NCBI GenBank assembly: GCA_963702415.1
Contig: CAVPCP010000021.1
Location: 145,383-209,382 of the forward strand
Direction of reading: 5' to 3'
Origin: an uncultured Bacteroidales bacterium
Lineage (GTDB): Bacteria; Bacteroidota; Bacteroidia; Bacteroidales; VadinHA17
Length of the DNA stretch: 64,000 nt
Shown piece after piece: positions 36,110-62,109 of this stretch. Below the pieces are notes generated by a model. That model did no database searches. It was not told the DNA's origin and was given only the letters and a program-made list of their open reading frames with translations. The position numbers and the translations under genes are program-made. The first letter of the stretch is position 1. Each line of letters begins with the position of its first letter.

Positions 36110-36191
36110 CCCCCGGAAATCAGCTTCGGGGGCTTTGTAATTATTATCAGGGAAATAAAATTTACTTTGGCTTTTTGCTGGTTTAAATTCG
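36110..36191 (+). repeat. Cassette boundary: hairpin T plus promoter P variant
   Basis: CCCCCGGAAATCAGCTTCGGGGGCTTT, then TTTACTTTGG...TAAATTCG. Confidence 0.8.
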
Positions 36192-36211
36192 TTTTTTAAA
36201 TCCTAAAAGGT

Positions 36212-36412
36212 ATGAAGACAAAAAAAGTCCTGTATAGATTATTTTTTGTTTTGCTGCTTCTCTTTGTTTTAAGTTTCAATTCGTGTAAAAAGAAAAAGAA
36301 ATGCTACTGGTGCGGTGAGCCTGATAGTAATATTTTTTACTATGAAAAGGTATGTGATGAGTCAGGGCTGAACTATCATTTATCGCATGGTGATGAATGC
36401 CTTGGTTGGTAA
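36212..36412 (+). CDS. Small Cys-rich lipoprotein
   Basis: FNSCKKKKKCYWC...VCDESGLNY...GDEC; paralog of 44727..44930. Confidence 0.65.
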   Translation: MKTKKVLYRLFFVLLLLFVLSFNSCKKKKKCYWCGEPDSNIFYYEKVCDESGLNYHLSHGDECLGW

Positions 36413-36430
36413 GAGGATAAGCATAGTCGG

Positions 36431-36708
36431 TATTTTACCTGACGTGTCCTTATAGGTGTCTTCCGGTGCAGCCATAACAGACAAAATTGATAGTAAAGTA
36501 TCAATCAGACTATATACCTTCATAATGTAAACATACTGATGCCATACGACATAAATTCAGAAAAGATATATTTGGAATTAATCCGATGACATCAGCCATT
36601 TTCCCGCTTTTAGGCTAAAATTCCCTGAAAATGTAACAAAAGTGCTATTTTTTGATACAAATGAGGTGGTTTTTGTCATTTGGGTGGTCGAACTTTGTAT
36701 AAGAATTC
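36431..36708 (+). repeat. Spacer/promoter module B (also ~41750-42010, 43668-43775, ~46770-46990, 53941-54190; 5' half at 60173-60290)
   Basis: Shared TATATACCCTCATAATGTA, TCAGAAAAGATATATTTGGA, CAGCCATTTTCCCG, ACAAAAGTG and TTGTCAT-N10-GAACTTTG. Confidence 0.8.
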
Positions 36709-36743
36709 ACTTAGACTATTCAGCTAATAAAACAAAACTTTAT

Positions 36744-37814
36744 ATGAAAAAGATAATCTTACCTCCGATTTTCCTGCTAGGTTTATTATTCCAGCCTGCA
36801 TTTGCCCAGATTGACCCGGTGAATGCTAAGTTTGTAGTTAAGGATACACAGAACCTGAACATCAGACTTTTTGACAGTAATGACCCATTTGAGATATCTC
36901 TCAGATTCGATATTACCACCTATAAAAGGGAAAGGTCTGACACTAATTATCTTGATGCTATCCTTACATATCATACAACTAAAACTGATTCTATTAACAA
37001 GAAAATAAAGCTTAAGGCCAGAGGGGAAATCGTACGAACAACAATATGTGATTTGCCTCCGATGAGTCTGAATTTTAAGCTTAAGGATACGATCGGAGGT
37101 GAATTTACTGGAATAGATGAGCTGAAGATTATGACGTATTGCAATCTTGGTTATGAGGATTACATTCTGAGGGAATATCTGATTTACAGACTATATAATT
37201 TACTGACTGATAACAGCTTAAAAGTAAGGCTATTAAGAATCAACTTTATTAATACGGCAAAAGAAAGCAAGCCCATCAGACAGTACGGATTTGCGATAGA
37301 ACCAGTAAAACTAATGGCCAATAGAACAAATACACTTGAAATAAAACCTGTAACCCTGAGCCAGAAAAACATCAAGCCTGAAATGCTGGACCGTTTCGCA
37401 ATATTTAATTTAATGATTGGCAATACAGACTGGTCGGTATCAAATCAGCACAATACCCTGATCCTTTCCCAACCAGGATCAGCACAACCTGAGCTTTATG
37501 TAATAGTTCCTTTCGAATTTGACTACTCGGGTCTAGTTAATGCTGATTATGCTGTTCCACACGAAAATCTGCCCATCAAGACGGTGCGAGAAAGGCTTTA
37601 TATGGGTATGTGCAGAAGTGAAGAGGTTTATAAAAATGAAGTCAGGGAATTTGCAGAAAAAAAGGATGATTTTTATAAGCTGATTAATGATTTTCCATAT
37701 CTCAATCCAAGATCAAAAGAGGATATGATAAACTACCTGAACGGATTTTTTGATATGTTCGATAAACATAATTCTATAGTTCACGATATGCTTAACCAGT
37801 GCAAGGATCTTTGA
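36744..37814 (+). CDS. Exported CotH-like atypical kinase-fold protein
   Basis: KARG, EYLIYRLYN, MIGNTDWS...HN, VPFEFDYSG; signal peptide at MKKII. Confidence 0.6.
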   Translation: MKKIILPPIFLLGLLFQPAFAQIDPVNAKFVVKDTQNLNIRLFDSNDPFEISLRFDITTYKRERSDTNYLDAILTYHTTKTDSINKKIKLKARGEIVRTTICDLPPMSLNFKLKDTIGGEFTGIDELKIMTYCNLGYEDYILREYLIYRLYNLLTDNSLKVRLLRINFINTAKESKPIRQYGFAIEPVKLMANRTNTLEIKPVTLSQKNIKPEMLDRFAIFNLMIGNTDWSVSNQHNTLILSQPGSAQPELYVIVPFEFDYSGLVNADYAVPHENLPIKTVRERLYMGMCRSEEVYKNEVREFAEKKDDFYKLINDFPYLNPRSKEDMINYLNGFFDMFDKHNSIVHDMLNQCKDL

Positions 37815-37853
37815 AAAGCCAATATACTTTTAGGACTTTTATCCTTCTTTTAA

Positions 37854-37930
37854 ATGTATGTTAGAGCCTATACTACAAATAGTTCTGATATTTCATATGG
37901 AAATGAAATTACATTAACAACCAGCCCGCA
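37854..37930 (+). pseudogene. Orphan FN3-like fragment of a FISUMP-type gene
   Basis: Reads YVRAYTTNSSDISYGNEITLTT; compare FVRAYATNSEGTAYGSEVSFSS in 34823..36082. Confidence 0.65.
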
Positions 37931-37936
37931 GTTGAT

Positions 37937-38007
37937 GCCCTCCGAAATCACTTCCGGTGTTTTTTGTAAAATTAAATTGACTTTGGTTTTTTACTGGTAT
38001 AACTTTG
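37937..38007 (+). repeat. Cassette boundary: hairpin T plus promoter P
   Basis: GCCCTCCGAAATCACTTCCGGTGTTTTTT; TTGAC at 37977, TAACTTTG at 38000. Confidence 0.75.
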
Positions 38008-38028
38008 GTTAAACAAAAAAAAAGGATC

Positions 38029-39048
38029 ATGAAACAAGCATTGTTAATATTATTTGTTGGTATTTATTTTCAGCTTTCCTGTTCTGATTATAAACCAAAT
38101 GTTAAGCCCCTGAATGATCTGGACAGAATGAAGTTAAAAGGAGATGTCAGATCCCTGACCGTAGCAATTTACAAGGCAGTGGAAAAGCCTGAAGGAATTA
38201 TAAAGAAGGGATTTGTATCCAAATTTAATTACCTGTTTAATGAATATGGGTATATGACTGAATCAGTGTACTTTAAATCAGATAGCGGTCAAGATGCAAA
38301 AACAACCTGCAAGTATGATGAGAAAGGAAATATTATTGAAAAAGTTACAACTAATAATGCTGATGATCTTTTGAGTAAAACTATCCTAAAGTATGATGAA
38401 AAAGGAAATTTAATTGAAACTGCTTATTTAAATAATACAGGTGATTTAATATATAAAGAAATTTTAAAATACGATGAGAAAGGGAATGCAATTGAAAGGG
38501 ATCGTAACAGATCAGATGACAGTCCGGGGGAAATAAGTCTATACTATGATGAAGAAGAGGGAAAATTTAAAAGAAATCATTTCAGACCAACCGGAAGCCA
38601 AAATACTAAATCAACTTATGAATATGATGAAAAAGGAAATCAGGTTAGTGAAAGATTTTACTTATCAGATGGTAGTTTATCCTCTAAACGAATTAATAAA
38701 TATGATGAAGAAGGCAATAAAATTGAGACTAATGTTTTTAGTTCAACCGATACATTAAAATTTAAACAGACCTTTAAATATGATGGAAAGGGGAACATAA
38801 TTGAGGAGAACCAGGGTAAGTCAGATTCTGATATGGAACTGGCTCACAGTTATAAATATGATGAAAAAGGAAATATAGTTGAGGAAATTATCAATTATGG
38901 CCTCAGGATTTCAAAAGCTACTTATAAATACGACAAATATGACAGTTTTGGAAATTGGCTTAGTCAAACAAGGGAAGAGTCTTCAATGAATACGGGAAAA
39001 GTGTACTCAAAAATTATTACAGAAAGAATAATTGAATACTCAAAATAG
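38029..39048 (+). CDS. YD-repeat (RHS-like repeat) lipoprotein
   Basis: Lipobox QLSC; LKG.V.S; many YDEKGN repeats; ends ITERIIEY. Confidence 0.8.
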   Translation: MKQALLILFVGIYFQLSCSDYKPNVKPLNDLDRMKLKGDVRSLTVAIYKAVEKPEGIIKKGFVSKFNYLFNEYGYMTESVYFKSDSGQDAKTTCKYDEKGNIIEKVTTNNADDLLSKTILKYDEKGNLIETAYLNNTGDLIYKEILKYDEKGNAIERDRNRSDDSPGEISLYYDEEEGKFKRNHFRPTGSQNTKSTYEYDEKGNQVSERFYLSDGSLSSKRINKYDEEGNKIETNVFSSTDTLKFKQTFKYDGKGNIIEENQGKSDSDMELAHSYKYDEKGNIVEEIINYGLRISKATYKYDKYDSFGNWLSQTREESSMNTGKVYSKIITERIIEYSK

Positions 39049-39062
39049 TCTGAGTTACTCAA

Positions 39063-39442
39063 GACCGCGCATCAGTTCCTGAGGCTTTTACTAAATATAA
39101 TTGACTTTGGTATTTAACTTTTACTGTGAAAATATATTTGACTTGTATTATTAGGGGTTGTAACTTTGTTAATCTCTATAATTTAATGTCTAACACGAGA
39201 CATCGTGCTTTTCTAACCCAATTCGGGGCGGTACGTCAATAAACCAAAGCGATCAATCAGGTGAAATGAAAAGTCATTTTTCCTCTTGTCATTGATGTTT
39301 GTATTAATAGGTCTTTCCTGAAATCAGGAGCACTTTCATAACCGGACTTTGTATTTGAATTTATTTAATAAGAATCACTGAAATTGGTATTGCAAACTAT
39401 TATTTCTAATCTCTTTTTATTAACCAAAATCTTACTGTTATG
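39063..39442 (+). repeat. Degenerate hairpin T plus promoter P plus long leader E (copy 2 at 59255-59570)
   Basis: TTGAC at 39138, TAACTTTG at 39161; ~310 bp closely similar to 59255-59570. Confidence 0.8.
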
Positions 39443-39913
39443 AAAACATTAAAGATTCTTTGTGCACTATGCATTATGCTTGGATTTGCGGCATCAGCAA
39501 ACTCCCAGGGTAAAGTAAAACAGGTCGAAAGGCCATTTAAAGGCACATTTCATGGCAAGGTTGTCGAAACATATCCAACTACTGAGGTAATGTCAATAAC
39601 CGGCAATGCATCGCATTTCGGAATAATTAGGAACAGCGAAATGACATTAGTTCGACCAACACCGCCTCCACCGTTAATTTCTACTTTTAACGGAATTTTA
39701 ATAGCTGCAAACGGCGATTATGTTAATTTCAATGGCAGTTGTAATATGACAATTACTAACCCACCTGCTGGTGGCACAATGATGGGGACAATTTATATCA
39801 CTGGGGGAAGCGGAAGATTCTCAGGCTGCACCGGAGAGGCTCTAATGACAGGGACATTCAGCATGTCAGAGGATTGGGCGGAGTGGACCCTCGATGGTAC
39901 TATAACTTATTAG
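39440..39913 (+). CDS. Exported small beta-rich protein
   Basis: Signal peptide; AANGD and GGSGRF.G.TG motifs shared with 43857..44435. Confidence 0.7.
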   Translation: MKTLKILCALCIMLGFAASANSQGKVKQVERPFKGTFHGKVVETYPTTEVMSITGNASHFGIIRNSEMTLVRPTPPPPLISTFNGILIAANGDYVNFNGSCNMTITNPPAGGTMMGTIYITGGSGRFSGCTGEALMTGTFSMSEDWAEWTLDGTITY

Positions 39914-39975
39914 TCAGTAATTATTTATAACTGTTCACTTTCTTCAATATTTTTCTGAAAAGAAGAACATATTAT

Positions 39976-40046
39976 CCTCCCGGAAATCAGCTCCGGGGCT
40001 TCCCTTTAAATAAAGTTGACTTTGGTTTAAACAAGGTGTAACTTAG
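39976..40046 (+). repeat. Cassette boundary: hairpin T plus promoter P
   Basis: CCTCCCGGAAATCAGCTCCGGGGCTT; TTGAC at 40016, TAACTTAG at 40039. Confidence 0.8.
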
Positions 40047-40156
40047 CATAATTATTCACTTTTTTTGGCAGATAACAGAGTGCTTTTGTTAAGGATATAT
40101 TGGTTAGCGGCATCCATAAAGACAACACTAATGCTACGTCAAAGCAAATAAATCAA

Positions 40157-40627
40157 ATGAATATTATATTCAAGATAGCAAGTACCAATTTAGAGTTTGA
40201 CGATGGACGTGACTTATTTCGACAATACACAGACTCTCTTAACATTAATATGTATTCTAAAGATGTCTATCTTGAACTTTTATTGATAGACAAGCGATAC
40301 AATCTGCCAGATGGTGCGTTGCTTCTTGTTTATGATAATAATGTTGCGGTAGGTTGTGCGGCAATTCAGAAATTTAATAAAAACACGGCTGAATTGAAAC
40401 GATTCTTTGTTCAGACAAAATACAAGGGATATAAAATTGGTGTGAAATTATTGGAACTGGCATTTGACATTGCTAAAGAACTCAACTATAGCAGAATCAG
40501 ACTTGATGCAAGACCAGCTATAACACAAACACGAAGCCTGTTTCGTTCATTAGGTTTTTATGAAATACCACCTTATGGTTTCAATCCAACCGAAGAGACT
40601 ACTTTAATGGAAAAGACACTGGTTTGA
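40157..40627 (+). CDS. GNAT family N-acetyltransferase
   Basis: VGCAAI...AELKRFFV...KGYKIG..LL; IRLD...LFRSLGFYEI. Confidence 0.8.
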   Translation: MNIIFKIASTNLEFDDGRDLFRQYTDSLNINMYSKDVYLELLLIDKRYNLPDGALLLVYDNNVAVGCAAIQKFNKNTAELKRFFVQTKYKGYKIGVKLLELAFDIAKELNYSRIRLDARPAITQTRSLFRSLGFYEIPPYGFNPTEETTLMEKTLV

Positions 40628-40647
40628 TATCTGCCCCCGGATCAACA

Positions 40648-40803
40648 TTAGATATGCTCCTAACGGCATTGGCAGATCTGGAAAGTATTATGTAAAATAT
40701 TATAGTCAAGATGAATATGAGATTTATTTCAATTCAACTTTCGTTCTCAAGGCTATAATGGAAGGTTATCAGATTAGTAAAACAAGATATGATAATTTCC
40801 ATT
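40648..40803 (+). pseudogene. Internal fragment duplicated from gene 43119..43457
   Basis: 156 bp matching 43234-43389 with 6 mismatches by manual count. Confidence 0.9.
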
Positions 40804-40924
40804 AAACTGTTTGCTTTTGTATTATATTCTGTGTAACCACTACCGGTGGTGTTGACATGGTAAGTATGCTGAAAGGGGTTGATGTGCGGGGATAATTGAT
40901 TACTTAGTCGTTCTATCTGGCTGG

Positions 40925-41188
40925 TTACAGATACGGATCCCTTTGGTCCAGGATATGCTTCTCTTTTTTAAGAAGTTCGTCCTGACTTTCACAATGTTCA
41001 GGATCACTGGCTATTGCATCAACCGGACAAATCCTGATGCATTGCGGTTCATCAAAATCACCCACACATTCCGTACACAGATTAGGATCAATAACATAAA
41101 CCGAATCACTTTCCGAAATTGCATCATTGGGGCACACCTCGATACACAGGCCGCATGATATACAATCAACGCAAATCACGAAAGCCAT
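40925..41188 (-). CDS. YfhL-type 4Fe-4S dicluster ferredoxin
   Basis: CISCGLCIEVCP and CTECVG.FDEPQC...CPVD. Confidence 0.88.
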   Translation of the reverse strand: MAFVICVDCISCGLCIEVCPNDAISESDSVYVIDPNLCTECVGDFDEPQCIRICPVDAIASDPEHCESQDELLKKEKHILDQRDPYL

Positions 41189-41359
41189 ATTATACCTCCT
41201 AGTTTTAAACTACAGTTGTTAACAGTCTGCATTTTATCCAACTCCGTAAAGCATTAAACCGAAATCTATTTAAGCTTTCGATTAATCAATCAGCTGACTC
41301 ACTTCATAATATAAAAATAATAATATTTTCCCATTAATATTACAACTAATTGAAGATAA

Positions 41360-41520
41360 ATGGGAACAATTGAAGAAAGTGTTGTTTTAGTAGTGGATGA
41401 TTCTGATACAGAGCTTTACCCATTTTTACCCTATTTGCTGCAAGACCTTTGGAAATTGGGGCAGATCCCGATGCAATGATCAAACCTACAATTATGTTCA
41501 TGGGAAAGGCAGTTTCATGG
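41360..41520 (+). pseudogene. Decayed 5' part of a probable class I SAM-dependent methyltransferase gene
   Basis: MGTIEESVV..VDDSDTELYPFLPYLLQDLW, then after a frameshift EIGADPDAMIK and a GKAVS-like remnant; family recalled from memory. Confidence 0.45.
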
Positions 41521-42107
41521 TCCGACAGAGGAACTTAAATCAAAGGGCTTATTCTGTTTATCTTCATTAAACTCCGGCTAATTCATTTTAAAATACAAAA
41601 AATTCAAAAAGAGGCTGTTACAAGTATAGGCTCATGGGAAAAAAATTCTTGACTGATAATGAACACTTGTTTAATTTTATTAAGGCTTAGAAAAACAAAT
41701 GGGTATCGGGATACAATAATAAAGCAGTTAACCTGCCACCCTTTATGAGAACCCTTGGAATACCCTTGGAAGGTCGACAAACAAGCTAAAGTGACAGTCA
41801 GTTACCACTTAAATAATATACCCTCATAATGTACCAGTACTGATGCCATACGGCATAATTTCAGAAAAGATATATTTGGAATAGATCAAATGTCATCAGC
41901 TATTTTCCCGCTTTTCAGCTAAAATTCCCTGAAAATTTAACAAAAGTGTCAGAAAATGATACAAAAGTGGTAGAATTTGTCATTGGGGTAGCTGAACTTT
42001 GATAAGAATTTGGTTGATAATGATTGTAGAAATTTATGTTGCACATATTTCTTACTTCTTTTCATTCACTAAAAACTATCATTAGTGGGCATTAAATTAT
42101 TAAAGTT

Positions 42108-42466
42108 GTTCTTTGAAATTATGAGATAATCGCATTTGCGGCTTTTTTTTAGAGCGTGACGATTTGAATTAGTCAAATTTTCTAATTATAAATCTATCAA
42201 TCTATTTTGTTGCTATTTTAAATTACCGTTGGCTTTAGCCAACGGTATATAGACCTCATTTATAAGGACTTTAGTCCACTACTTTTGGGCTAAAGCCCGA
42301 CCAGTGGTGTGTCTTAATCCGTTGGCTAAAGCCAACGGTAAAGTAAAACGATCTTAAAAGAGATTTTCAATATACGAAAATCTATAAATTTTGAACATCC
42401 CCTCACTTAATAAAATACCTATAAAAGAGATACTTACGATATGCGATTACAATAATGTCAAAGAAC
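42108..42466. mobile_element. REP/MITE-like element with four hairpins and 12-bp terminal inverted repeats
   Basis: Ends GTTCTTTGAAAT and ATGTCAAAGAAC; core CCGTTGGCTTTAGCCAACGG, GGACTTTAGTCC, GGGCTAAAGCCC, CCGTTGGCTAAAGCCAACGG; inverted copy at 55843-56172. Confidence 0.75.
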
Positions 42467-42525
42467 TTAAAAATATCCAATTAATAATCAGAGGGTTTTA
42501 ATTGCCCACTACTGAAAAACTATTA

Positions 42526-42946
42526 ATGATGAAGACAAAAACTCTATTACTATTATGCCTTTTTTTAGGCATTGGATTGACTCAACTTTCTGCACAAAAA
42601 ACAACAGTTAAGTATGCAATGGGTGGTGATGCCTTGCCGGAGCCTATATTGTGTGATGGGGTAGAGTATTGGTTGACGGGGGTTTATTTCGGACAAGAAA
42701 TTAACATTTACTATAAAGATTGGGGAGCTTAAGAAGGGAATAAATCATCTTAAGGGGGAACTTACAAATGTAGAGACTGGTGAAATATTTCAAATACACA
42801 TTAAATACAAGGGTGATTATGTTGATGGGTATGTAATTGAGACAACCAATTTTAAAGGGAATATGGGTACACATGCTAATCAAAGGTTGGTATGGGACGT
42901 AGTAGCCGGATGGGAGTATTATTGGCTTAAAACGAATTGTCATTAA
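42526..42946 (+). pseudogene. Exported protein (MKTK...QLSAQ family) with a 1-bp frameshift near 42720
   Basis: Removing one T gives ...YYKDGELKKGINHLKGELTNVETGEIF...KGNMGTH...KTNCH*; may be a sequence error. Confidence 0.65.
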
Positions 42947-42988
42947 GACTAAAATTAAAGAACCTCAAAAATCATTTCAGAAATCCCA

Positions 42989-43015
42989 GCCCTCGGAAAT
43001 AAGCTAAGGAGGTTT
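42989..43015 (+). repeat. Hairpin T, degenerate
   Basis: GCCCTCGGAAATAAGCTAAGGAGGTTT. Confidence 0.65.
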
Positions 43016-43118
43016 ATGTTCAAGAAAAGATGAGATGCTTAAGACTAAGACAATATCAGATTCAAGACTTCCGTTTATAAAAAGAAGTCTGCTCAAATCT
43101 GAATTATCAGCATAGTGT

Positions 43119-43457
43119 ATGGTTATGATATCACTTAGGGAATTGCTAAGAAGGATTGCATCGAGTAATATCCGGAATAAGATTGCATCTGGTACAATGG
43201 TCTACTTTGAAAGTCCTTTGGAAGAATTGGCATTTAGATATGCTCCCAACGGAATTGGCAGACCTGGAAAGTACTATGTAAAATATTATGGTCAAGATGA
43301 ATATGAGATTTATTTCAATTCAACTTTCGTCCTCAAGGCTATAATGGAAGGTTATCAGATTAGTAAAACAAGATATGATAATTTCCATTTAATTAAGGGT
43401 GTCCTTTGGTACAGGCATATTAAAACTCCTGAAACTCCAAAGTCTGTTGGAAATTAG
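43119..43457 (+). CDS. Hypothetical protein
   Basis: 112-aa ORF; part of it is duplicated at 40648. Confidence 0.6.
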   Translation: MVMISLRELLRRIASSNIRNKIASGTMVYFESPLEELAFRYAPNGIGRPGKYYVKYYGQDEYEIYFNSTFVLKAIMEGYQISKTRYDNFHLIKGVLWYRHIKTPETPKSVGN

Positions 43458-43856
43458 TTCATTGGTCTGGAGCGGTAAATAAGTGTGTTTTTGAAGTCCG
43501 GAAGTTATCAGCTAACAGGACTTTTTTTATTAAGAAGCCAGCACCCTGAAAGTGAATTGGAGAACCCTATTTCACTACTAACCTAAACCTAACCTGATAG
43601 GATGCTGGCATAAATTTAAACAGTTCTGCTCTGAATAAGTTCAAATAGAATATTTCCTTCGCTTTTAGCCATTTTCCCGTTTTTAGGATAAAATTCCCTG
43701 AAAATGTAACAAAAGTGCTATTTTTTGATACAAAAGTGGTAGACTTTGTCATTGGGGTGGTCGAACTTTGTATGTGAATCTGGTTAATCAGGATCGTAGA
43801 AATTGATATTGCATACACTTATATCTAACTCTTTTTATAAACCAAAATCATCAAAA

Positions 43857-44435
43857 ATGAAGACACTGAAAAAGATCTTATTCTTTATTGCAGGACTTGG
43901 GCTGCTTATTGCATGCTCTAAATCTGACCATTTCTGGGGTGATGAACCCCTTGGTAATACAATGAAAGGTGGAAAATCTGATCCGGTTATGGTTACTACA
44001 CCTTTTAAAGCTGACTTTCTTGGCAATTATACATCTGTGGAAGTAAGTGCAGAATGTGGTGATTATCCAAATATGCGCGTTGTTGTAGATGCTACAGGAA
44101 CAGGTACTCATGTTGGAAAATCCACAGTGCACTTTGATTTCTGCTGCAATATGGAAACAGGGGTGTATGGTTCTAGTGCACCGTATGCAATTGTGGCTGC
44201 TAATGGAGATATTCTCTATATTTACGGTGAAGGTCAGGTTATAGATGGAAGGTTACCAGATCATCCTGATTATGTGACCTCTTATTGGAGAGATCCTTTT
44301 GTAATACAAGGAGGTACAGGTCGGTTTAAAGGTGCAACAGGAGGTGGTATGATGGATGATTATAACAGTAGTGAGGACCCTTATTCTCACCACCACTGGA
44401 CTGGAACCATTACATTGGTTAAAGGAAAACAATAA
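43857..44435 (+). CDS. Lipoprotein related to 39440..39913
   Basis: Lipobox LIAC; PFK..F.G, AANGD, GGTGRFKGATG, W.GTI. Confidence 0.75.
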   Translation: MKTLKKILFFIAGLGLLIACSKSDHFWGDEPLGNTMKGGKSDPVMVTTPFKADFLGNYTSVEVSAECGDYPNMRVVVDATGTGTHVGKSTVHFDFCCNMETGVYGSSAPYAIVAANGDILYIYGEGQVIDGRLPDHPDYVTSYWRDPFVIQGGTGRFKGATGGGMMDDYNSSEDPYSHHHWTGTITLVKGKQ

Positions 44436-44930: not shown

Positions 44931-44952
44931 ACAGGCATGCTTTATAGAAGTC

Positions 44953-53777: not shown

Positions 53778-53900
53778 CTATATAAACAGGGTAAATACCA
53801 GCAAGCATTGGAAATACTTCAAAAAAGCTGGGATTTAAGAATGAAGAATTCCATTTATAATCTTACAGCGTATCTTCATCTCGAAGATGCAAAAAAAAAG
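53778..53900 (+). pseudogene. Orphan 3' tail of a 48535-type TPR gene
   Basis: Reads LYKQGKYQQALEILQKSWDLRMKNSIYNLTAYLHLEDAKK. Confidence 0.85.
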
Positions 53901-54227
53901 CAATTGATCCTTATCTCGTAGCTGAGGTAACAACAGCCGATATTTTACCTGACGTGTCCCTGTTATACCCTTGATAGGTCGGCAAAAATGCTAAATTGAT
54001 GGTAAAGTATCATTCAGACTATATACCCTCATAATGTACCTATACAGATGTCATACGACATAATTTCAGAAAAGATATATTCAGAATATTTCCGATTTCA
54101 TCAGCCATTTTCCATCTTTTAGGCTAAAATCATCTTAAAATGTAACAAAAGTGGTAGACTTTGTCATATGGGTAGCTGAACTTTGGATGAAAATTTGACT
54201 TATTAATCATTAAAAGATCTAAAGGAA

Positions 54228-54725
54228 ATGAAGGAATTATGTTTAACAGCAGTAATTTTTGTACTCCTTTTAACAGTTACTAATGGAATACAAGCGCAAA
54301 CTACGCAAACAAAACTCAATCAGGTTGAGTTAGTGAAACAGTGGCTTGGTACGTGGCAAAATGATGTTAGCAAAGACACGGTTGATATATGGGAGGCTAG
54401 ACCCTATGGAAAAGCAATTATAGCAACCGTATATAGGGTTATTAAGGGTGTTAAATCTGATTCGTATGTGGTCAATTTTGGTTATGATGACAGAGATGAT
54501 AAGTTAAAAGGCTTTAATCTTTCTCCGAATACAGATTTTATGACATGGATTGGTGTGTTTACTACAGATAAATTGTTCAAGGTAGATGCCTTGGATTCCT
54601 TTAAACCTGATATTGTGTGGTGGAAAAATGAAGTAGAGTTTAAGACTCCAAAAGAAATGGTTGTTAGAGCCTATAACTCTAAAGGGGAAAAGACTGGTGA
54701 GTGGATTTATAAAAAAGTTAAATAA
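54228..54725 (+). CDS. Exported hypothetical protein
   Basis: Signal peptide ending IQAQ; LNQVELVKQWLGTW. Confidence 0.7.
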   Translation: MKELCLTAVIFVLLLTVTNGIQAQTTQTKLNQVELVKQWLGTWQNDVSKDTVDIWEARPYGKAIIATVYRVIKGVKSDSYVVNFGYDDRDDKLKGFNLSPNTDFMTWIGVFTTDKLFKVDALDSFKPDIVWWKNEVEFKTPKEMVVRAYNSKGEKTGEWIYKKVK

Positions 54726-54895
54726 CACGAACTCACTCACATTAAATTAATACTCTTATTAATAAAAAGTTACAGGCTTTGCTGGAATTAAGGAATGATA
54801 CATTATTCCAAAAATATAATAACGATCCGATAGGTGATAGTTTTGAGTTACGAGATGGGTATACCACTGAAGTATATGTTAAGTTGAAATAACCT

Positions 54896-55122
54896 CTCCG
54901 TCCTCGTTATTCAGCTTGACCTCAGATCGGGAGCTTTTTATTACCAGATATCCTTTGGAGTGAATCAAATTCTGAATGACTTTTCAATTATCTCCACATA
55001 AGTAGTCCCTGCCATTAGCTAAAAAGAGATCGTTAAGGACTATCAGTAAATACTAATGTCACCAAAGAAATTTCTTGAATAGATAATAAACTTGACTTTG
55101 GCTTTTTGTGGGAGTAACTTTG
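54896..55122 (+). repeat. Rearranged hairpin T plus spacer C plus promoter P
   Basis: CTCCG...TCAGCTT...TCGGGAGCTTTTT; spacer resembles 47612-47763; TTGAC at 55092, TAACTTTG at 55115. Confidence 0.75.
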
Positions 55123-55254
55123 TTTAAGAATTTATTTGAAGTATTTAATATGAATTGATATCATTGAAATTCACATATACGTTATTAAGGCTTTTAATAG
55201 TCCGAGTTATCTCTTTAATAAAAGATTTCATTTCTTAAATAAAAATATTGCATT

Positions 55255-55728
55255 ATGAAAGAAAATCTGTTCAAGTTACTCTGTATCGCTTTAATGTCGG
55301 TCGTTTTAATTTCATGCACCAGCACATCAACATCTAAACTAATAAGTATAGAAGATTATACTTTTGCCCGCACGGGTGATAGCGACCAGCTTGTAGCCGT
55401 TGACAATCCGGCTGTTTTTAAAAGAGGAGATGCTGTCCACCTTGTCTTACAGAATGTTGGTCCTTTCAAAAAGGCCGATGACGGGCTTAACTGGTTTGAC
55501 CTTGATATGGAAATCACCGGTCCTGATGGAGTGATTCTGTTATCACAAACCGGAATGCTTGGTGATGGCGGACATGTTGCTCTTGAAAATAACAGGGCTA
55601 AGTCACCCTTCGCCACCTGCACCACAACTCCAGACGTAGTTCCGGGAAAATACAAGTTTAAGCTTACAATTTACGACAAGATCGGAAGCGGGAAAGCTAC
55701 ACAGACTGCAATTTTTACTCTGGAGTAG
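55255..55728 (+). CDS. Hypothetical lipoprotein (Ig-like)
   Basis: Lipobox LISC; PGKYKFKLTIYDK. Confidence 0.7.
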   Translation: MKENLFKLLCIALMSVVLISCTSTSTSKLISIEDYTFARTGDSDQLVAVDNPAVFKRGDAVHLVLQNVGPFKKADDGLNWFDLDMEITGPDGVILLSQTGMLGDGGHVALENNRAKSPFATCTTTPDVVPGKYKFKLTIYDKIGSGKATQTAIFTLE

Positions 55729-55842
55729 ATTTCAATTTTAATGATTAACTATGTGAAAATTTAAAGAAAGATTTTATTTTTTTGATATAGAAGCACATTA
55801 GTGTCCACTTAAGTATAATTGTTTTCAACTGTATACAATTTA

Positions 55843-56172
55843 GTTCTTTGACATCTTGGTAATCCTGGTTTGTAAGTAGTTAATTTTGAGATAATTTGTT
55901 TATATATGTTATGTTCAGTAGGTGTATAATTTCATTGTTAAAATCAATTACCGTTGGCTTTAGCCAACGGATGAAGATACAACCCAAGGTAGGGCTTTAG
56001 CCCACAAATGAAGGACTAAAGTCCTATATAGTGAGGCTGATATACCGTTGGCTAAAGCCACCGGTAACTAAAATTAACCTTAATCTGATCAAAGTCTAAA
56101 TATGATTTCATTTCAAATAGTCACGCTATTAAAAAACGCTACACCCAATATTTATTCATTATTTCAAAGAAC
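55843..56172. mobile_element. Second, inverted copy of the four-hairpin REP/MITE-like element
   Basis: Ends GTTCTTTGACAT and ATTTCAAAGAAC; the same four hairpins in reverse order. Confidence 0.75.
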
Positions 56173-56253
56173 GATATTTATTTTTAAGTGGAAACTAATG
56201 ATAGAAACAGATAAATTATCTACATCATTCTTATAAAATGATTTTAAAATTAC

Positions 56254-56364
56254 AAGCCCTCGGAAATGAAATCCGGGGGCTTTCTGTTCTATTTATCTGA
56301 CCCTCACTTGACTTTGGTATCAGTATGGTGTAACTTTACATATATAAAGCCAAAAAAAGACCTA
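56254..56364 (+). repeat. Cassette boundary: hairpin T plus leader G/promoter P
   Basis: AAGCCCTCGGAAATGAAATCCGGGGGCTTT; TTGAC at 56308, TAACTTTA at 56331. Confidence 0.85.
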
Positions 56365-58497
56365 ATGATCAAAAATCTAAAAGATCTGGTTCAATTCTGG
56401 CAGGAACTTAAACAAAGAAATGTTGTCAGGGTACTGACAGTCTATCTCGCAGCTGCTTTTGCTGTATTGCAAGCAGCTGATATGATTTTCCCTCGTGTTG
56501 GCCTTCCTGAATGGACTGTAACTCTTGTATTAGTTTTACTTGGTGCAGGATTAATCATTGTAATAGTAATTACCTGGATTTATGATATAACACCTGAAGG
56601 GATCAAGAAAACCAGCGATTTAAAACAAGCTCTGAAAAATGGTAACAAAGAAATAGAAATTGAACTTCCTCTCTGGGAATCAACCGCTACTCAGTCTGGG
56701 AAAGAACCAGTTTCGATTAGTAATGATTTGTATACAGAAAGGATCAGGCAGTTAAAGAGGAAAGGAAAAATTTACAGCTATAGTTCTATTATTGTCATTC
56801 TTGCCGTTACTGTCCTGTTCGTTTTCTCAAGTGCAAATATTGTTCCTTTTGACAAACGTGACTGGTTATTAATAACAGATTTTGAAAATCTGACTGAAAA
56901 TCCTGTCTTTGACAGATCACTTTATGCAGCATTCTCGCTCACAATAAATCAATCAAGGTATATAAATGTCTTTTCCAGATCCAGAATGATTGAAACTTTG
57001 ACAAGAATGAAAGTAAAAGATCTGGTATTTATAGATGAAAGAATAGGGAGAGAATTAGCATTGAGGGAAGGTATTAGTGTTTATATTGTGCCTAGTATAG
57101 CTGAAGTCGGAAACAAGTATGTTATTACTGCAAAAATACAAGAGACCAAAACCGGGAATATTTTAAAATCGATTATTTTAAATGCCGAAAATCAGGACAA
57201 AATTCTAACAAAGTTAGACAAGCTGAGTAAAATAATTCGTCGTGACCTTGGTGAACCAAGATATAAGATTTCTATTAAGGACAAACCATTAACGAAAGTA
57301 ACTACCTCATCACTAGAGGCTTTAAAACAATATTCCCTGGGTATTGAATCCCATTATAAGCTTGACTTTGCAGCTGCAAAAAACTATTATGAAAATGCCT
57401 TACGGATTGATTCCGGTTTTACAGCAGCGAGAGCATCGCTAGGCAATATTCTAATTGAGAGATTTGACCCTGAAAAGGGACGTGAATTACTAAATCAGGC
57501 GGTTAAACATGTTGACAATCTGACAGACAGGGAAAAATACGGTATCCTTGCTTTTCATGCTATTAATGTAGAAAATAATAATATTAAGGGTATTGACTAT
57601 GCCAAGACTCTAACAGAGTTATACCCTGATGATCCTGCTTATCGTAACAATCTTGGCTGGTATTATCAGAAATCTGGGCAATTTGAAGAAGCCTTGAAAG
57701 AGTACAAAACAGCTGTACATATTAATCCAAACCAAACACTTACTTTCTCAGGGATAGTGTGGGTTTATCTTGAAATGCTAGGGAAACCTGATTCCGCCCT
57801 GGGCTGGGCTGAAAAAATGATTTCTGCTAATGCTCAGAATGCCTGGGGTTATTACTATTTAGGGTCAGCCTGGTTGAGCCTTGATGACATTGAAAAAGCC
57901 GAAATTGCCTATCAGAGAGCGAGAGAGATTGATCCTTATTTTTTGACTAATCAATATGCCCTGGCTCATGCTTATAATATTCAAGGACGGTATAAGGAAG
58001 CCATCAGGATATTAGAAAGAATTATTGAGAATAGTAAAAATGGACCTTCAACTTATTTTGAAAGAATTATTGCGACCGACCAAAATGATCCATCAGCTTA
58101 TTACGATTTAGGTATCAACTATCAAGCTATGGGAAATCAGGAAGAAGCCCGGAAATATTTTAACATTTACAAAAATATTGTAACAGAAGAATGGATGAAG
58201 AAACGGCCGAATAATGCCGTAACATTTATTGCAATAAGTGATGTGACAGCACATTTAGGCGATATTGAATTCTCAAAGGAAATGCTTCAGAAAGCAAAGG
58301 ATATCGACTCAACACTTCATGAACGGTTCGCAGAAGTGCTTTGTATACAGGGTAATATACCAGAAGCTCTTTATGAAATAGAAAAAGCACTTGATAACGG
58401 ATTTCGCAATCTGTTATGGTTAAAACAAAATCCTGACCTGCAAATCTTACATAATGATGCCCGATTCCGAAATTTGTTGGGAAAGTATTTCAAGTAG
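56365..58497 (+). CDS. Membrane-anchored TolB-N-like plus TPR protein
   Basis: FWQELKQRNV module, LITDFENLT, TTSSLEALKQY, TPRs. Confidence 0.8.
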   Translation: MIKNLKDLVQFWQELKQRNVVRVLTVYLAAAFAVLQAADMIFPRVGLPEWTVTLVLVLLGAGLIIVIVITWIYDITPEGIKKTSDLKQALKNGNKEIEIELPLWESTATQSGKEPVSISNDLYTERIRQLKRKGKIYSYSSIIVILAVTVLFVFSSANIVPFDKRDWLLITDFENLTENPVFDRSLYAAFSLTINQSRYINVFSRSRMIETLTRMKVKDLVFIDERIGRELALREGISVYIVPSIAEVGNKYVITAKIQETKTGNILKSIILNAENQDKILTKLDKLSKIIRRDLGEPRYKISIKDKPLTKVTTSSLEALKQYSLGIESHYKLDFAAAKNYYENALRIDSGFTAARASLGNILIERFDPEKGRELLNQAVKHVDNLTDREKYGILAFHAINVENNNIKGIDYAKTLTELYPDDPAYRNNLGWYYQKSGQFEEALKEYKTAVHINPNQTLTFSGIVWVYLEMLGKPDSALGWAEKMISANAQNAWGYYYLGSAWLSLDDIEKAEIAYQRAREIDPYFLTNQYALAHAYNIQGRYKEAIRILERIIENSKNGPSTYFERIIATDQNDPSAYYDLGINYQAMGNQEEARKYFNIYKNIVTEEWMKKRPNNAVTFIAISDVTAHLGDIEFSKEMLQKAKDIDSTLHERFAEVLCIQGNIPEALYEIEKALDNGFRNLLWLKQNPDLQILHNDARFRNLLGKYFK

Positions 58498-58557
58498 ACC
58501 TTTTTTGAGCATGAAAAGGGAAGAAAATGGCTTGAAGAGCAGGGGATGCTGTTATCC

Positions 58558-58608
58558 CTTCATCTTGAAGCAGCAAAAAAGGCTGTTGCAGGGCAAAAGA
58601 ACAATTAA
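58558..58608 (+). pseudogene. Orphan 3' tail of a 48535-type TPR gene
   Basis: Reads LHLEAAKKAVAGQKNN*; compare LHLEAAKKAVAGMKNN* at 50401-50451. Confidence 0.85.
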
Positions 58609-58702
58609 CTTTAATTTTAATCTGCTCTATCACCAGATTTTATAATTTCACAATAAAAAGAGAAAATAGGGGAAAGTAAATAGTAATTTAATTAATACAA
58701 TT

Positions 58703-58903
58703 ATGGCATTCATCGGTTCTCACAACAGATTTAATGAATTCAGAGATGATTTCTTAAAAGATACGGGAGTAAAAAATGTCGATGACAATATGGAACTTTA
58801 TACCCAATATGTAACCGCAAGATTTGCTGATCAAAATCATCGCTTATTGAGTAATCTTGTGAATGAAATTCAGGACTTATACAAAGTACTTAAAAAGGTT
58901 TAA
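58703..58903 (+). CDS. Small hypothetical protein
   Basis: 66-aa ORF with AT-rich upstream. Confidence 0.55.
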   Translation: MAFIGSHNRFNEFRDDFLKDTGVKNVDDNMELYTQYVTARFADQNHRLLSNLVNEIQDLYKVLKKV

Positions 58904-59254
58904 TGTTCCAATGTCAAACCTGAGGATTTAAACAAACAAACTTAGTTTAGGTCACTTATTTCATGACAGGGAGGCCAAAATAAAAGGAAGACAAAAAAAT
59001 CGCATCCCGTGGCCTAAAAAAGTAATTCTTCTTTCTACCTGAAAGCAAAAAGTAATTGATCTTTTTCTCTTACATAGGAAAAGTATGCCAAAACTTAATA
59101 CCCCTTCAAGGTCAATGCTTATCCAGTGCTCAATGAAAACGCATTGGTCATGGTAACCACTAGCCAAAGATATATGCCCTTATAAAGGACTTATGCAACA
59201 AGACAGGGGGTTTGTTTCTAAAATGCAATTGCAATTGGCTTTTAACTAAAACAA

Positions 59255-59570
59255 TGAAAATATATTTGACTTGTATTATTAAGGGTTGTAACTTTGTTAA
59301 ACTCTATAATTTAATGTCTAACACGAGACATCGTGTTTTCCGAACCCAACTCAGGGCGGTACGACAATAAATTCAAAGCAATCAATCAGGTGAAATGAAA
59401 AGTCATTTTTTTCTTGTCATTGATGTTTGAATTAATAGGTCTTTCCTTCAATCAGGGGCACTTTCATAACCAGACTTTGCATTTGAGTTTATTTAATAAG
59501 AATCACTGAAATTGGTATTGCAAACTATAATATCTAACTTTTTTTTATTAACTAAAATCTATCAGCTATG
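59255..59570 (+). repeat. Promoter P plus long leader E, copy 2
   Basis: Close copy of 39126-39442; TTGAC at 59266, TAACTTTG at 59289. Confidence 0.85.
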
Positions 59571-60014
59571 AAGACTAAGATTTTTTTGTTTTTATCATTT
59601 CTATGTGGTATTACAACAATGCAACTTTCCGCACAGAAATTAGATCAAAATCGTAAAAACGTTGTTTTTGATTCTTACATAGTCACTCTTCGTCCCGGTG
59701 TTACAATGAATCAGTATGTGGATTTTCTAAAAACTAAGGTCGTATCTGAATATGATAAAAATTTCCCAGGATCAAAAATGACTATAGGGTGTCCTGATTC
59801 CTGGAGGGAGAAAAATCAATATTGCTTCCTTTATAGCTTTGACTCAGAGAAAGAATTCAACAAATATATTAGAAATGGAACTGGAATGTCAGATGAACCT
59901 AGAGCAGCCTGGGAGAAAACAAGACAATCAATTGAAGAGGAAGGAAGTAAATATATTTTAGATAAAGAACAAGTGGATGTTGAATGGGAAGCGTGGATGG
60001 AAGATGCAAAATAA
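59568..60014 (+). CDS. Exported hypothetical protein (MKTK...QLSAQ signal)
   Basis: Signal peptide; unrelated mature domain. Confidence 0.65.
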   Translation: MKTKIFLFLSFLCGITTMQLSAQKLDQNRKNVVFDSYIVTLRPGVTMNQYVDFLKTKVVSEYDKNFPGSKMTIGCPDSWREKNQYCFLYSFDSEKEFNKYIRNGTGMSDEPRAAWEKTRQSIEEEGSKYILDKEQVDVEWEAWMEDAK

Positions 60015-60089
60015 AATATTTTTAATAGTTCATAAACATTTAAGTAAAACACTCAGTTTTATATCAATTATTTTATAATATTTTACGTC

Positions 60090-60336
60090 GCCTCGGAAAT
60101 CAGCTCCGGGCGCTTTCTACAGGAAACATAAGCAACTGATTTTTTTCTCAAGCGAGTGATAACTATGCCAATTCTTATCTGACGTATCCTTGGAATAACC
60201 TTGAAGGTCAGCAAACTTGTGAAAGTCATAGTTAAGTATCACTTTTTATATATACCCTCATACGGTACCTAAACTGATGACACATGGGATGATTATGAAA
60301 TAAGTTTGACTTTGGATTAAACAGGGTGTAATTTTG
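60090..60336 (+). repeat. Cassette boundary: hairpin T plus 5' half of module B plus promoter P
   Basis: GCCTCGGAAATCAGCTCCGGGCGCTTT; TTGAC at 60306, TAATTTTG at 60329. Confidence 0.8.
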
Positions 60337-60414
60337 GTATAAGATATGGAGAGACAGATTGCACTTTTATTACTTTAATTCTATGCTAATAATGTTTTTT
60401 TAAAATATACAGTA

Positions 60415-61020
60415 ATGTGGAAAAAAATCATTTTTCTGACCATAACACTACTAATTCCATCATGCAAGATACAAATTGATTGCCCAGGCTATCCTGAAAA
60501 ATATTTGGTTTGGATGCCCTATATACAGGGTGAAGAATTTTCATTAACAGACGGAATTGATACGTTTCAACTTATTGTGGAAACGACAGATATAACAAAG
60601 GCATATACAATAAAAGAATATAAGTATCTGGCAAATGATTGCTCTTGTCGTGCAAACGCCACTATTACAAGTGACTTCTTCCCAACCATTCTCTTTTTTA
60701 GCGAAAATAGAGAAGATTATGCTGCAGACTTTGTTATTTCTTTTCTGACCCCTTATCATGAATTTCCCAATACAGTTCAATCTTTCCAATTTCAGGATAA
60801 TAATGGAGATACAATCTATTCATTCTATCCATATGAACATAATGAGTTATTAAGTAGTTATAACAATGGCTACAAAATATTTAATGATGTTTTAAAAATA
60901 GAATCTGATACATTGCTATCTGATATACTGATTTATCAGATTTATATTGCAAAAAGGGTTGGAATCATTCAGTTTAAAGATCGCTTTAATCACAAAACAT
61001 GGAGTCTTATTAAATTGTAG
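60415..61020 (+). CDS. Hypothetical lipoprotein
   Basis: Lipobox IPSC; IYIAKRVGIIQF C-terminal motif. Confidence 0.7.
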   Translation: MWKKIIFLTITLLIPSCKIQIDCPGYPEKYLVWMPYIQGEEFSLTDGIDTFQLIVETTDITKAYTIKEYKYLANDCSCRANATITSDFFPTILFFSENREDYAADFVISFLTPYHEFPNTVQSFQFQDNNGDTIYSFYPYEHNELLSSYNNGYKIFNDVLKIESDTLLSDILIYQIYIAKRVGIIQFKDRFNHKTWSLIKL

Positions 61021-61192
61021 TACTATAGATATCAAACAGTATTAAAATTTCTTGTTACGATTCTTGACTGCTTGGGCGGATTACTGTTTAGTACAACTTT
61101 ATAAGAAATATCAATTGATAGCGAGTTATTCTTGAGGATTGCATTCTCTCTTATAAATACAAGAACTACTGTAAGATAATATCTTTTTTTAA

Positions 61193-61396
61193 CCCTAGGA
61201 CATCAGCTTCCGTTTTTTTTGCCAAATTTCCTTAGGAGAATTAGGAAATCGCGCGATCAAACTAATTATCTTCTCTTGGGTGGTATCTAGCATTGGCTTA
61301 AACGATAATTGATCAGATGCATAAATAGGTGCACTTAGAATGGATTTCTTGAATAGATAAATAAAATTGACAAAGGCTTTTAGTGGTGTAACTTTG
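61193..61396 (+). repeat. Truncated hairpin T plus spacer C plus promoter P
   Basis: CCCTAGGACATCAGCTTCCGTTTTTTTT; spacer matches 44512-44662; TTGAC at 61367. Confidence 0.85.
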
Positions 61397-61417
61397 ATAT
61401 TAATAAAATTCAAAATC

Positions 61418-61858
61418 ATGAAGAATGAGATTGGCAGTATCGTAAACTATTTTGTAGCATTTTGCTACATAGTGATTGGAATAATTTACCTGATTAAGGA
61501 CAGTTTTATGCCTTACCACCAAAAAGCAGTATCTCTTCAATGGAGCCAAATAGATTTGAACATTCAGTTTTTAATACTTGCACTTATGCGCGCTGTAAGC
61601 GCAGGATTTATTCTAATAGGTCTTATTATTATCTGGTTACAAATTGAATTTTTTAAAACTAAATTAAGATGGATTCCATCTTTGATTTTAATATCTGTTA
61701 CTGTTTTTTCATTAATCCAAATATATGCGACCATGATAGTAAGATTAAATACTCCCGGAAATCCTCCTACTACATTGATCTTAACAGGTCTTCTCCTAAT
61801 CGTTATAGGTTTCGTATTCAACCGGAAGTCCTTATCAGATATATCCTCTTCTCAATAA
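61418..61858 (+). CDS. Four-TM membrane protein
   Basis: FMPYHQKAV...W, LALMR, TPGNPP motifs. Confidence 0.7.
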   Translation: MKNEIGSIVNYFVAFCYIVIGIIYLIKDSFMPYHQKAVSLQWSQIDLNIQFLILALMRAVSAGFILIGLIIIWLQIEFFKTKLRWIPSLILISVTVFSLIQIYATMIVRLNTPGNPPTTLILTGLLLIVIGFVFNRKSLSDISSSQ

Positions 61859-62000
61859 CTTTCTTTAATTTAGACTTTTATATAAAATATTCACGACATT
61901 TTATTTAGCGGCATTCCCTTCCACAAGGCGACCGCACAATGGCTTTAAATCAGATAGAAAGTATTGTAAACTCATAGGGGTGCCGTTCCCATAACTTATA

Positions 62001-62109
62001 CTTCGGAAATCAACCGTGGGCTTTTTCTTACTTACCAATATCTGACCCTCACTTGACTTTGGTATCAGGATAGCATAACTTTACCTACATAAAGACAAAA
62101 AGTTACCTG
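62001..62109 (+). repeat. Cassette boundary: degenerate hairpin T plus leader G/promoter P
   Basis: CTTCGGAAATCAACCGTGGGCTTTTT; TTGAC at 62053, TAACTTTA at 62076. Confidence 0.8.

What the first reader, a model, noticed from the sequence alone, without database searches (positions are those of the whole stretch)
36110..62026. Terminator-like hairpin with a conserved loop, repeated about 18 times
Seen: consensus GCCCYCGGAA-ATCAGC-TTCGGGGGC-TTTT at 36110, 37937, 39976, 42989, 44481, 44953, 47581, 51562, 56254, 60090 and 62001, with variant or partial copies at 30289, 39063, 40633, 43495, 48427, 54896 and 61193. In the best copies (36110, 51562) the left arm has one unpaired G. Known: intrinsic terminators behind unrelated genes do not normally share loop sequence; attC sites and REPs are recognised as folded single-stranded DNA with extrahelical bases. 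Inference: T may be both a terminator and a recombination or recognition site.
Basis: partly seen in the sequence, partly recalled or inferred. Interest (0 to 1): 0.75.

Follow-up and report, generated by a model that had tools for sequence, protein, structure and literature searches.

The report
Terminator-promoter joints shuffling tRNA-island genes
In one genus of uncultured sediment Bacteroidales, a 30-base hairpin, likely a transcription terminator, sits between unrelated genes in arrays beside tRNA genes, and relatives differ by gene swaps that often end at it, likely through ordinary recombination between these shared joints rather than an integron-type enzyme.

Summary
The repeat (T) is real: 17 of the 18 listed copies belong to one family, all on the + strand, each behind a gene; 30289 is an unrelated hairpin. 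The 'unpaired G' is a G-U wobble, not a conserved bulge. T is not genome-wide: 20 of 23 model hits lie in four arrays that end at tRNA 3' ends (here tRNA-Cys, just past the window). It occurs in 57 of 201 genomes of the genus and 0 of 398 other genomes of the order. T is usually followed by a shared Bacteroidota promoter. A close relative has the same island reshuffled; a two-gene block bounded by T (43017-44514) sits there at another tRNA. 11 of 32 independent intergenic breakpoints fall at T (8% expected); others fall in the shared promoters or elsewhere. No covariation, attC cores, empty sites or linked recombinase were found. Best reading (0.6): terminator-promoter joints acting as short homology for gene exchange, as PeSLs do in T4-type phages, here in bacterial tRNA islands. 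Termination and the enzyme are untested. The scan's earlier notes describe similar tRNA-side arrays in other bacteria.

The parts
33742..64000 (+). Variable island: about 26 unrelated genes and gene fragments, all on +; it runs past the window to the 3' end of tRNA-Cys(GCA), which lies on the - strand at window-equivalent 64591-64662
   Evidence: identity to relative G048 stops at 33741 and resumes beyond the tRNA
36109..36140 (+). T, intact; behind the Fib_succ_major gene 34823-36082
36153..36191 (+). Shared promoter module P1 (TTGAC ... TAnnTTTG type); a junction with G048 starts here
   Evidence: (D4)
36476..36707 (+). Long shared upstream module D2 ending in a GAACTTTG box (also near 41780-42010, 43645-43770, 46760-46990, 53985-54200); several junctions fall in it
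37937..38007 (+). Decayed T joined directly to P1 (37969-38007); block 36533-38005 is 94% identical in G226 at another tRNA island and ends at the -7 box
39063..39092 (+). Decayed T; contigs of three runs stop matching at 39075, in the loop
39976..40046 (+). T joined directly to P1 (40008-40046); block 40008-40801 is 97% identical in G048 with another left neighbour
40633..40806 (+). Left half of T fused to the 3' part of a copy of gene 43119 (96% to 43234-43392): an old deletion that began in the loop, shared with G048
   Evidence: (D15)
42989..43017 (+). Decayed T; left end of the moved block
43017..44514 (+). Two-gene block (43119-43457, 43858-44435, inner variant hairpin 43495-43530) found at 96% in G048 at the tRNA-Pro island, both ends at T
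44482..44514 (+). T; the same upstream gene end is followed by three different promoter modules in the window, G048 and a metagenome contig (L238)
44954..44986 (+). T; one strain contig switches here to the P3 module, three others keep the window's order
47582..47614 (+). T, intact
48427..48507 (+). Left half of T followed by promoter module P3 (48469-48507)
   Evidence: (D20)
51137..51590 (+). Unit P1 - 109-aa membrane protein gene - T (51562-51590), 92% identical in G123 from promoter start to T end
54920..54942 (+).
56256..56338 (+). T joined to P3 (56300-56338)
60089..60120 (+). T
61193..61222 (+). Decayed T; alignment to G048 starts in its loop
62003..62083 (+). T lacking most of its left arm, joined to P3 (62045-62083); this right side follows the 43017-44514 block in G048

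Best explanation
T is a genus-specific hairpin, likely an intrinsic terminator, that with a few shared promoter modules forms the joint between self-contained gene units in islands at tRNA 3' ends, and these joints likely serve as short homology through which the host's general recombination swaps, adds and removes genes. Shown: the repeat, its place behind genes and before promoter motifs, its confinement to tRNA-side arrays of one genus, reshuffling between close relatives, and an excess of breakpoints at T. Inferred: that it terminates transcription; that the islands were founded by tRNA-integrating elements whose integrase was lost; that exchange is by homologous recombination (a crossover in T, in a promoter module, or one in each) with DNA from another island, strain or species; that this copying, not selection on the loop, keeps the loop alike. 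Each unit carries its own start and stop, so a swap would not disturb its neighbours.
For: Terminator: 10-bp GC-rich stem plus T run on the coding strand; 167 of 208 copies have a same-strand ORF ending within 300 nt upstream; a group II intron sits directly behind the T run in L019, the kind of target class C introns use (PMC4424553; class read from its 5' end by recall). Joint: promoter-like motif within 250 nt downstream in 35 of 106 copies against 3% at random (consensus in PMC7366714). Islands: 15 of 39 exact-match loci have a convergent tRNA downstream against 1.6% expected; 74 of 75 copies in tRNA-bearing stretches are on the tRNA's 3' side; integrases or remnants at some islands. Exchange: G048 (flanks 91-98% identical) has the same island with 4 of 24 window genes at 95-99.5% in another order and 2 more at the tRNA-Pro island, bounded by T at both ends; a 1.9-kb gene unit in the tRNA-Gln island is missing in G048 from just after T to the start of P3; 11 of 32 independent intergenic ends at T against 8.1% (binomial 2.5e-5; 8.5e-3 if the null is doubled); flanks reassort (pairs sharing both flanks 23, one flank 1125); two strain-level joints at T. 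Copied sequence: no covariation; four exact copies behind unrelated genes within 2.1 kb in L231. Precedent: PeSL crossovers in the stem-loop and near the -10 box (PMC2839356).
Against: No RNA data, so termination is untested. 18 of 39 independent ends are at other intergenic places (some in module D2) and 7 in ORFs; two indels against G048 have no T at their ends. Alignments of diverged homologs (85-92%) tend to stop at the end of a terminator anyway; among ends of alignments at 94% or more only 4 of 11 are at T. T offers only about 27-30 nt of homology, short for RecA (recalled). Substitutions outside the fixed wobble do not clearly favour coding-strand pairing (44 G-U against 34 A-C). 16 of 75 copies point away from the tRNA and 41 of 208 have no ORF just upstream. 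The genomes are MAGs with frameshifts; the strain joints rest on few contigs of depth 4-7 from runs that may be one campaign. No circular intermediate was seen.
Confidence: 0.6

Rival explanations
1. T is a passively inherited terminator. It spread with duplicated gene ends (often Fib_succ_major genes) and with repeated arrival of integrative elements at tRNAs; illegitimate deletions and selection for intact start-gene-stop units then give the look of T-bounded cassettes.
For: 18 of 106 copies sit directly behind a Fib_succ_major-type C-terminus and that type forms the largest neighbour cluster (53 of 288 ORFs); integrases, remnants and att-like repeats at the tRNA ends; many junctions and truncated genes with no T.
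Against: Near-identical gene ends (93-99%) are followed right after T by different modules that themselves follow T elsewhere; neighbours fall into 135 families; no tRNA-Cys 3' fragment of 14 nt or more inside the array.
Confidence: 0.2
2. T is a dedicated recombination site, read as a folded strand by an enzyme encoded elsewhere in the genome, and the arrays are an integron-like system without a linked integrase.
For: Fixed orientation (100 of 106 neighbouring pairs alike); a kept T-G/C-A irregularity (78 of 110); several breaks and small indels in the loop (40647, 39075, 48446, 61202).
Against: No covariation; no attC cores; crossovers also in promoter modules; the tRNA-Gln indel is not a clean T-by-T excision, since the spacer after the second T is lost too; none of 5 tyrosine-recombinase hits lies near a T array; the genome's integron-like recombinase is found in 9 of 20 T-bearing and 9 of 19 T-negative genomes; none among 100 neighbour families scanned. 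G000 is only 73% complete.
Confidence: 0.15
3. T is a small mobile repeat (REP- or MITE-like) inserted behind genes by a HUH transposase.
For: About 30-nt imperfect palindrome, intergenic, genus-specific, decaying from one master; three Y1 transposase genes in the genome.
Against: No empty site at 13 sites whose two flanks were found side by side elsewhere (240 copies tested); single copies in one orientation, not inverted pairs; not genome-wide; no T hit near the three Y1 genes; no fixed four-base foot.
Confidence: 0.05

Closest known systems
PeSL (promoter-early stem-loop) cassettes of T4-type phages (Arbiol et al. 2010, PMC2839356; Comeau et al. 2014, PMC4122927)
   Same: Terminator stem-loop just upstream of a promoter, repeated between orphan genes in hypervariable regions; indels and swaps between close relatives end at the joints; half-decayed joints; no dedicated recombinase found.
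   Different: Bacterial chromosome, not a lytic phage; Bacteroidota -33/-7 promoters; several promoter modules share one terminator; arrays sit at many different tRNA 3' ends and trade genes; genes are larger (to 2 kb) and often exported; termination and mini-circles not shown here.
Integrons and attC arrays (incl. CALINs); the same genome's integron-like array on contig C8
   Same: Co-oriented array of unrelated genes, one repeat per junction, reshuffled between relatives.
   Different: No attC cores, no covariation, no fixed crossover, no linked integrase, and units carry their own promoter. The C8 array has long TAAC...GTTA sites and its own recombinase and shows no intergenic match to the T array.
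tRNA-integrating elements of Bacteroidota (arm-binding tyrosine integrases, NBU-like; recalled)
   Same: Position at tRNA 3' ends, att-like direct repeats behind the tRNA terminator, integrase plus HTH_17 gene beside a tRNA fragment in L022, remnants elsewhere.
   Different: T is shared by islands at many tRNA species with different att-like repeats, most arrays have no integrase, and no att fragments lie between the units.
REP / BIME / REPIN repeats with RAYT (recalled)
   Same: Short imperfect GC-rich palindrome behind genes, taxon-specific.
   Different: Not genome-wide, no inverted pairs, no fixed foot, no empty sites, no linked Y1 gene.

Membership tests
PeSL cassettes | Stem-loop directly upstream of a promoter, repeated between variable genes | tested here: met
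   T then P1/P3/D2-type module; promoter-like motif behind 35 of 106 copies against 3%
PeSL cassettes | Concentrated in hypervariable regions | tested here: met
   20 of 23 hits in four tRNA-side islands; island reshuffled in G048
PeSL cassettes | Indels and swaps between close relatives end at the joints | tested here: met
   11 ends at T and 3 at P1/P3 of 39; 25 elsewhere
PeSL cassettes | Stem-loop is a working terminator | not testable with these tools
   no RNA run listed; form and position fit
PeSL cassettes | Mini-circles formed between neighbouring joints | tested here: inconclusive
   only contigs were available; no joint that closes one unit into a circle among those shown
PeSL cassettes | Located in a T4-type phage genome, sigma70-type early promoter | tested here: not met
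   chromosomal contig with housekeeping flanks; 0 exact matches in viral contigs. It works like a PeSL but is not filed as one
Integron attC | RYYYAAC and GTTRRRY core boxes at the ends (motif recalled) | tested here: not met
   both present in 0 of 110
Integron attC | Conserved extrahelical bases, structure kept by covariation (recalled) | tested here: not met
   bulge variant 11 of 110; paired cells 87.3% against 86.9% shuffled
Integron attC | IntI-type integrase next to the array or tracking it | tested here: not met
   genome 73% complete
REP/RAYT | Fixed foot tetranucleotide, inverted doublets, genome-wide spread, flanking a Y1 gene (recalled) | tested here: not met
tRNA-integrating element island | Lies at a tRNA 3' end | tested here: met
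tRNA-integrating element island | Integrase and duplicated tRNA 3' end bounding the island | tested here: not met
   none in this island; present in some relatives' islands
DGR target hairpin | Reverse transcriptase and template repeat; hairpin behind the variable gene only (recalled) | tested here: not met
   no RVT_1 in G000; only 18 of 106 copies behind Fib_succ_major ends

The most novel reading that the evidence does not exclude
One terminator sequence acts as a common plug for a genus-wide, integrase-free gene-exchange network that links all tRNA islands of these bacteria, and it is actively cut or recombined in its loop by a host enzyme not yet known, so that self-expressing gene units move between islands, strains and species as circles.
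Probability: 0.17. Interest if true: 0.8.

Novelty: new variant of a known kind. Interest (0 to 1): 0.52.

Why it matters
Joint-mediated shuffling of self-contained genes has been shown in T4-type phages. Here the same layout is in a bacterial chromosome, across more than fifty species of one sediment genus, and ties islands at many tRNAs into one pool of mostly unknown, often exported proteins (67 of 100 neighbour families without a Pfam hit). It offers a route to integron-like plasticity with no integrase, which integron finders would miss, and gives a 30-base marker for finding these accessory genes. The mechanism can be tested in a laboratory Bacteroides strain.

Tried and rejected
Rfam on the window: no match. 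No tRNA inside the window; the anchor lies 590 nt beyond it. No RNA holder listed among public runs, so no evidence on expression either way. Viral contigs: 0 exact matches. DGR hairpin idea: dropped. Retro-cassette idea (units bounded by transcript start and end): disfavoured, as promoter spacer variants travel with their gene and no reverse transcriptase was found, not excluded. T as an inserting element: no empty site. Link to the C8 integron-like recombinase: no association, tested with its N-terminal 215 aa only. att fragments between units: none of 14 nt or more. Position of the crossover inside T from arm variants: too few pairs (7 + 2) to place it. Sigma70 scan is uninformative for this phylum (84 sites against 71 in shuffles). 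ComEC is present but is near-universal and proves nothing. 30289 dropped from the family. Literature: no paper held all terms; one search gave two unrelated listings; some searches gave the papers cited. None of these searches showed a description of this element; subscription papers and supplements were not seen.
Full report
1. Observation. The repeat is in the sequence. The consensus matches 6 times with up to 3 mismatches, all on +, against 0.00 in shuffles. 17 of the 18 listed copies are family members, several decayed or halved; 30289 is a different hairpin in the conserved flank. Over 110 distinct copies from the genus the element is a 10-bp stem with one T-G wobble (78 of 110), a 7-nt loop AATCAGC and a T run. 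The 'unpaired G' arises only in a right-arm variant (11 of 110) and folds as a G-U pair. No Rfam family matches.

2. Surroundings. From about 28.8 kb on, the long ORFs are on +. They are unrelated: Fib_succ_major, RHS-repeat, GNAT, subtilase and TPR proteins, and many signal-peptide proteins without a Pfam hit. All 17 copies lie behind a gene or fragment. A second repeat family, TTGAC ... TAACTTTG (D4), fits the Bacteroidota -33/-7 promoter consensus (PMC7366714, one passage read); with its variants and the longer module D2 it precedes most genes, often directly after T. The array ends at the 3' end of tRNA-Cys, on the opposite strand, 590 nt beyond the window.

3. Distribution. A covariance model finds 23 hits in the genome (150 candidates scored): 10 in this array, 4 at tRNA-Pro, 4 at tRNA-Gln, 2 near tRNA-Arg, all facing the tRNA, and 3 elsewhere. 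The pattern is in 57 of 201 genomes of the genus, the reversed control in none, in 0 of 398 genomes of other genera of the order and in no viral contig. 15 of 39 of those loci (one overlapping locus dropped) have a convergent tRNA downstream, against 1.6% for random places in G000. In larger stretches 74 of 75 copies are on the 3' side of the nearest tRNA, 58 facing it and 16 pointing away (stretches were chosen around T). Behind these tRNAs are paired 8-10-nt direct repeats that I read, from memory, as integrase arm sites; integrases or remnants occur at some islands but none of 5 tyrosine-recombinase hits in G000 is near a T array. Neighbouring copies share orientation in 100 of 106 pairs. 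288 neighbouring ORFs fall into 135 families; of 100 representatives scanned, 33 have a Pfam hit and none is a recombinase (one IS91-linked recombinase neighbour was scanned).

4. Exchange. Relative G048 has 91-98% identical flanks at the same tRNA-Cys locus but a reshuffled island. Of 24 window genes tested against the fetched part of G048, 4 are in the same island at 95-99.5% in another order and 2 are at the tRNA-Pro island at 97-98%. That block (43017-44514) starts right after a T remnant, where G048 leaves the G000 tRNA-Pro island, and ends in a T whose right side continues like window 62003 onward. In the tRNA-Gln island a 1.9-kb unit present in G000 is absent from G048; the gap runs from just after one T to the start of promoter P3, which fits two crossovers in two shared modules better than a T-by-T excision. 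A second indel there has no T. All-against-all comparison of 103 stretches (1.77 Mb; alignments of 300-6000 nt, 85% or more, within 1.5 kb of a T, not continued collinearly) gave 66 ends, 39 independent: 11 at T, 3 at P1/P3, 18 at other intergenic places, 7 in ORFs; T covers 8.1% of the null (binomial 2.5e-5; 8.5e-3 with the null doubled). Among alignments at 94% or more, 4 of 11 ends are at T. Of 230 copies, 127 share a downstream module with a copy whose upstream flank is unrelated and 107 the reverse. Contigs from sediment runs span T at 37937, 44481 and 44953 and the half-T at 40633 in the window's order, which supports the assembly; three runs diverge at 39075 in a T loop and one contig switches at T 44953 to P3 (few contigs, low depth, possibly one campaign).

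5. What T is not. There is no covariation: paired cells 87.3% against 86.9% in shuffles, 4 pairs with double changes (128 of 500 shuffles as high), covariation score reached by 21 of 500. attC core boxes (recalled motif) flank 0 of 110 copies. No empty site was found at 13 sites with both flanks adjacent elsewhere. The genome has a true integron-like array on contig C8 (earlier notes; located); its recombinase is found in 9 of 20 T-bearing and 9 of 19 T-negative genomes (G227 left out, T status not counted). No reverse transcriptase was found, which with only 18 of 106 copies behind Fib_succ_major ends removes the DGR idea. G000 is 73% complete, so absences are soft.

6. Mechanism. Most likely (0.6) T is a terminator, and T plus the promoter modules are short shared homologies through which general recombination exchanges self-contained units in islands founded by tRNA-integrating elements. 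Termination, founding by such elements and RecA dependence are inferred. The shared loop then reflects copying of one master sequence. Rivals: passive inheritance with illegitimate deletion (0.2), a dedicated site with an unlinked enzyme (0.15), a REP-like insert (0.05).

7. Comparison. It works like the PeSLs of T4-type phages: stem-loop upstream of a promoter, grouped in hypervariable regions, near indels, often half-degraded (PMC4122927, parts 1 and 2 of 3 read), with crossovers seen in the loop and near the -10 box and no dedicated recombinase identified (PMC2839356, abstract and 12 passages). It is not a member: it is chromosomal, with Bacteroidota promoters, and circles are not shown. 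Class C group II introns insert behind intrinsic terminators or at attC (PMC4424553, 3 passages); one intron sits right behind T, which fits a terminator but does not separate the two.

8. Novelty. My searches found no paper on this element or on such arrays in Bacteroidales (the library lacks most subscription papers). I reached the PeSL comparison; the scan's earlier notes, seen, report similar terminator-promoter arrays, mostly beside tRNAs, in CPR bacteria, Saccharibacteria, an alphaproteobacterium, a rumen Bacteroidales genus and an archaeon. They are unchecked and are not evidence, but they suggest a recurring layout, not a one-off. No note matched this sequence. Verdict: new variant of a known kind, interest 0.52.

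Noticed in passing
L301 (G000 C23, about 392-415 kb): A third array type in this genome: 8 copies of an about 70-nt site between accessory genes of both orientations, downstream of tRNA-Met(CAT). Unrelated to T; could be a recombination site.
   Followed up: no
L300, L302 (G000 C8, 209-290 kb): Integron-like array, 43 copies of one 16-mer, long TAAC...GTTA sites, split tyrosine recombinase upstream; it holds paralogs of window genes 40157 (72%) and 51692 (68%), so the two systems draw on related cargo.
   Followed up: partly
window 42216-42348 and 55930-56067: Paired palindromes of another repeat family, with copies across the genome up to 96% identical over 370-400 nt; REP- or MITE-like insertions into the array.
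   Followed up: no
window 9917-10363: IS200/RAYT-type Y1 transposase (Pfam Y1_Tnp), one of three in the genome.
   Followed up: partly
L019 18225-18876: Group II intron of about 650 nt without an ORF directly behind T's T run; 1 of 253 copies checked.
   Followed up: partly
L020 2837-4808: IS91-type transposase with a tyrosine recombinase gene, right behind T and a promoter module shared with cargo genes.
   Followed up: partly
L001 6800-6975; L029 12680-12850: About 170-nt palindromic module behind tRNA-Cys ending in a piece of the tRNA's 3' end; similar modules behind other tRNAs.
   Followed up: no
window 62110-64000, 34116-34736, 42526-42947: Frameshifted genes; decay or assembly error cannot be told apart here.
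   Followed up: no
window 34102, 42515, 59554: Unrelated mature domains share one leader and signal-peptide start (repeat D19), so the shared joint can reach into the gene.
   Followed up: no
window 31995-32105: Palindromic 110-nt insertion absent from G048.
   Followed up: no
window 44954-44986: The orthologous T in G048 differs at 5 of 30 bases while its flanks differ by 2-3%; one case only.
   Followed up: no
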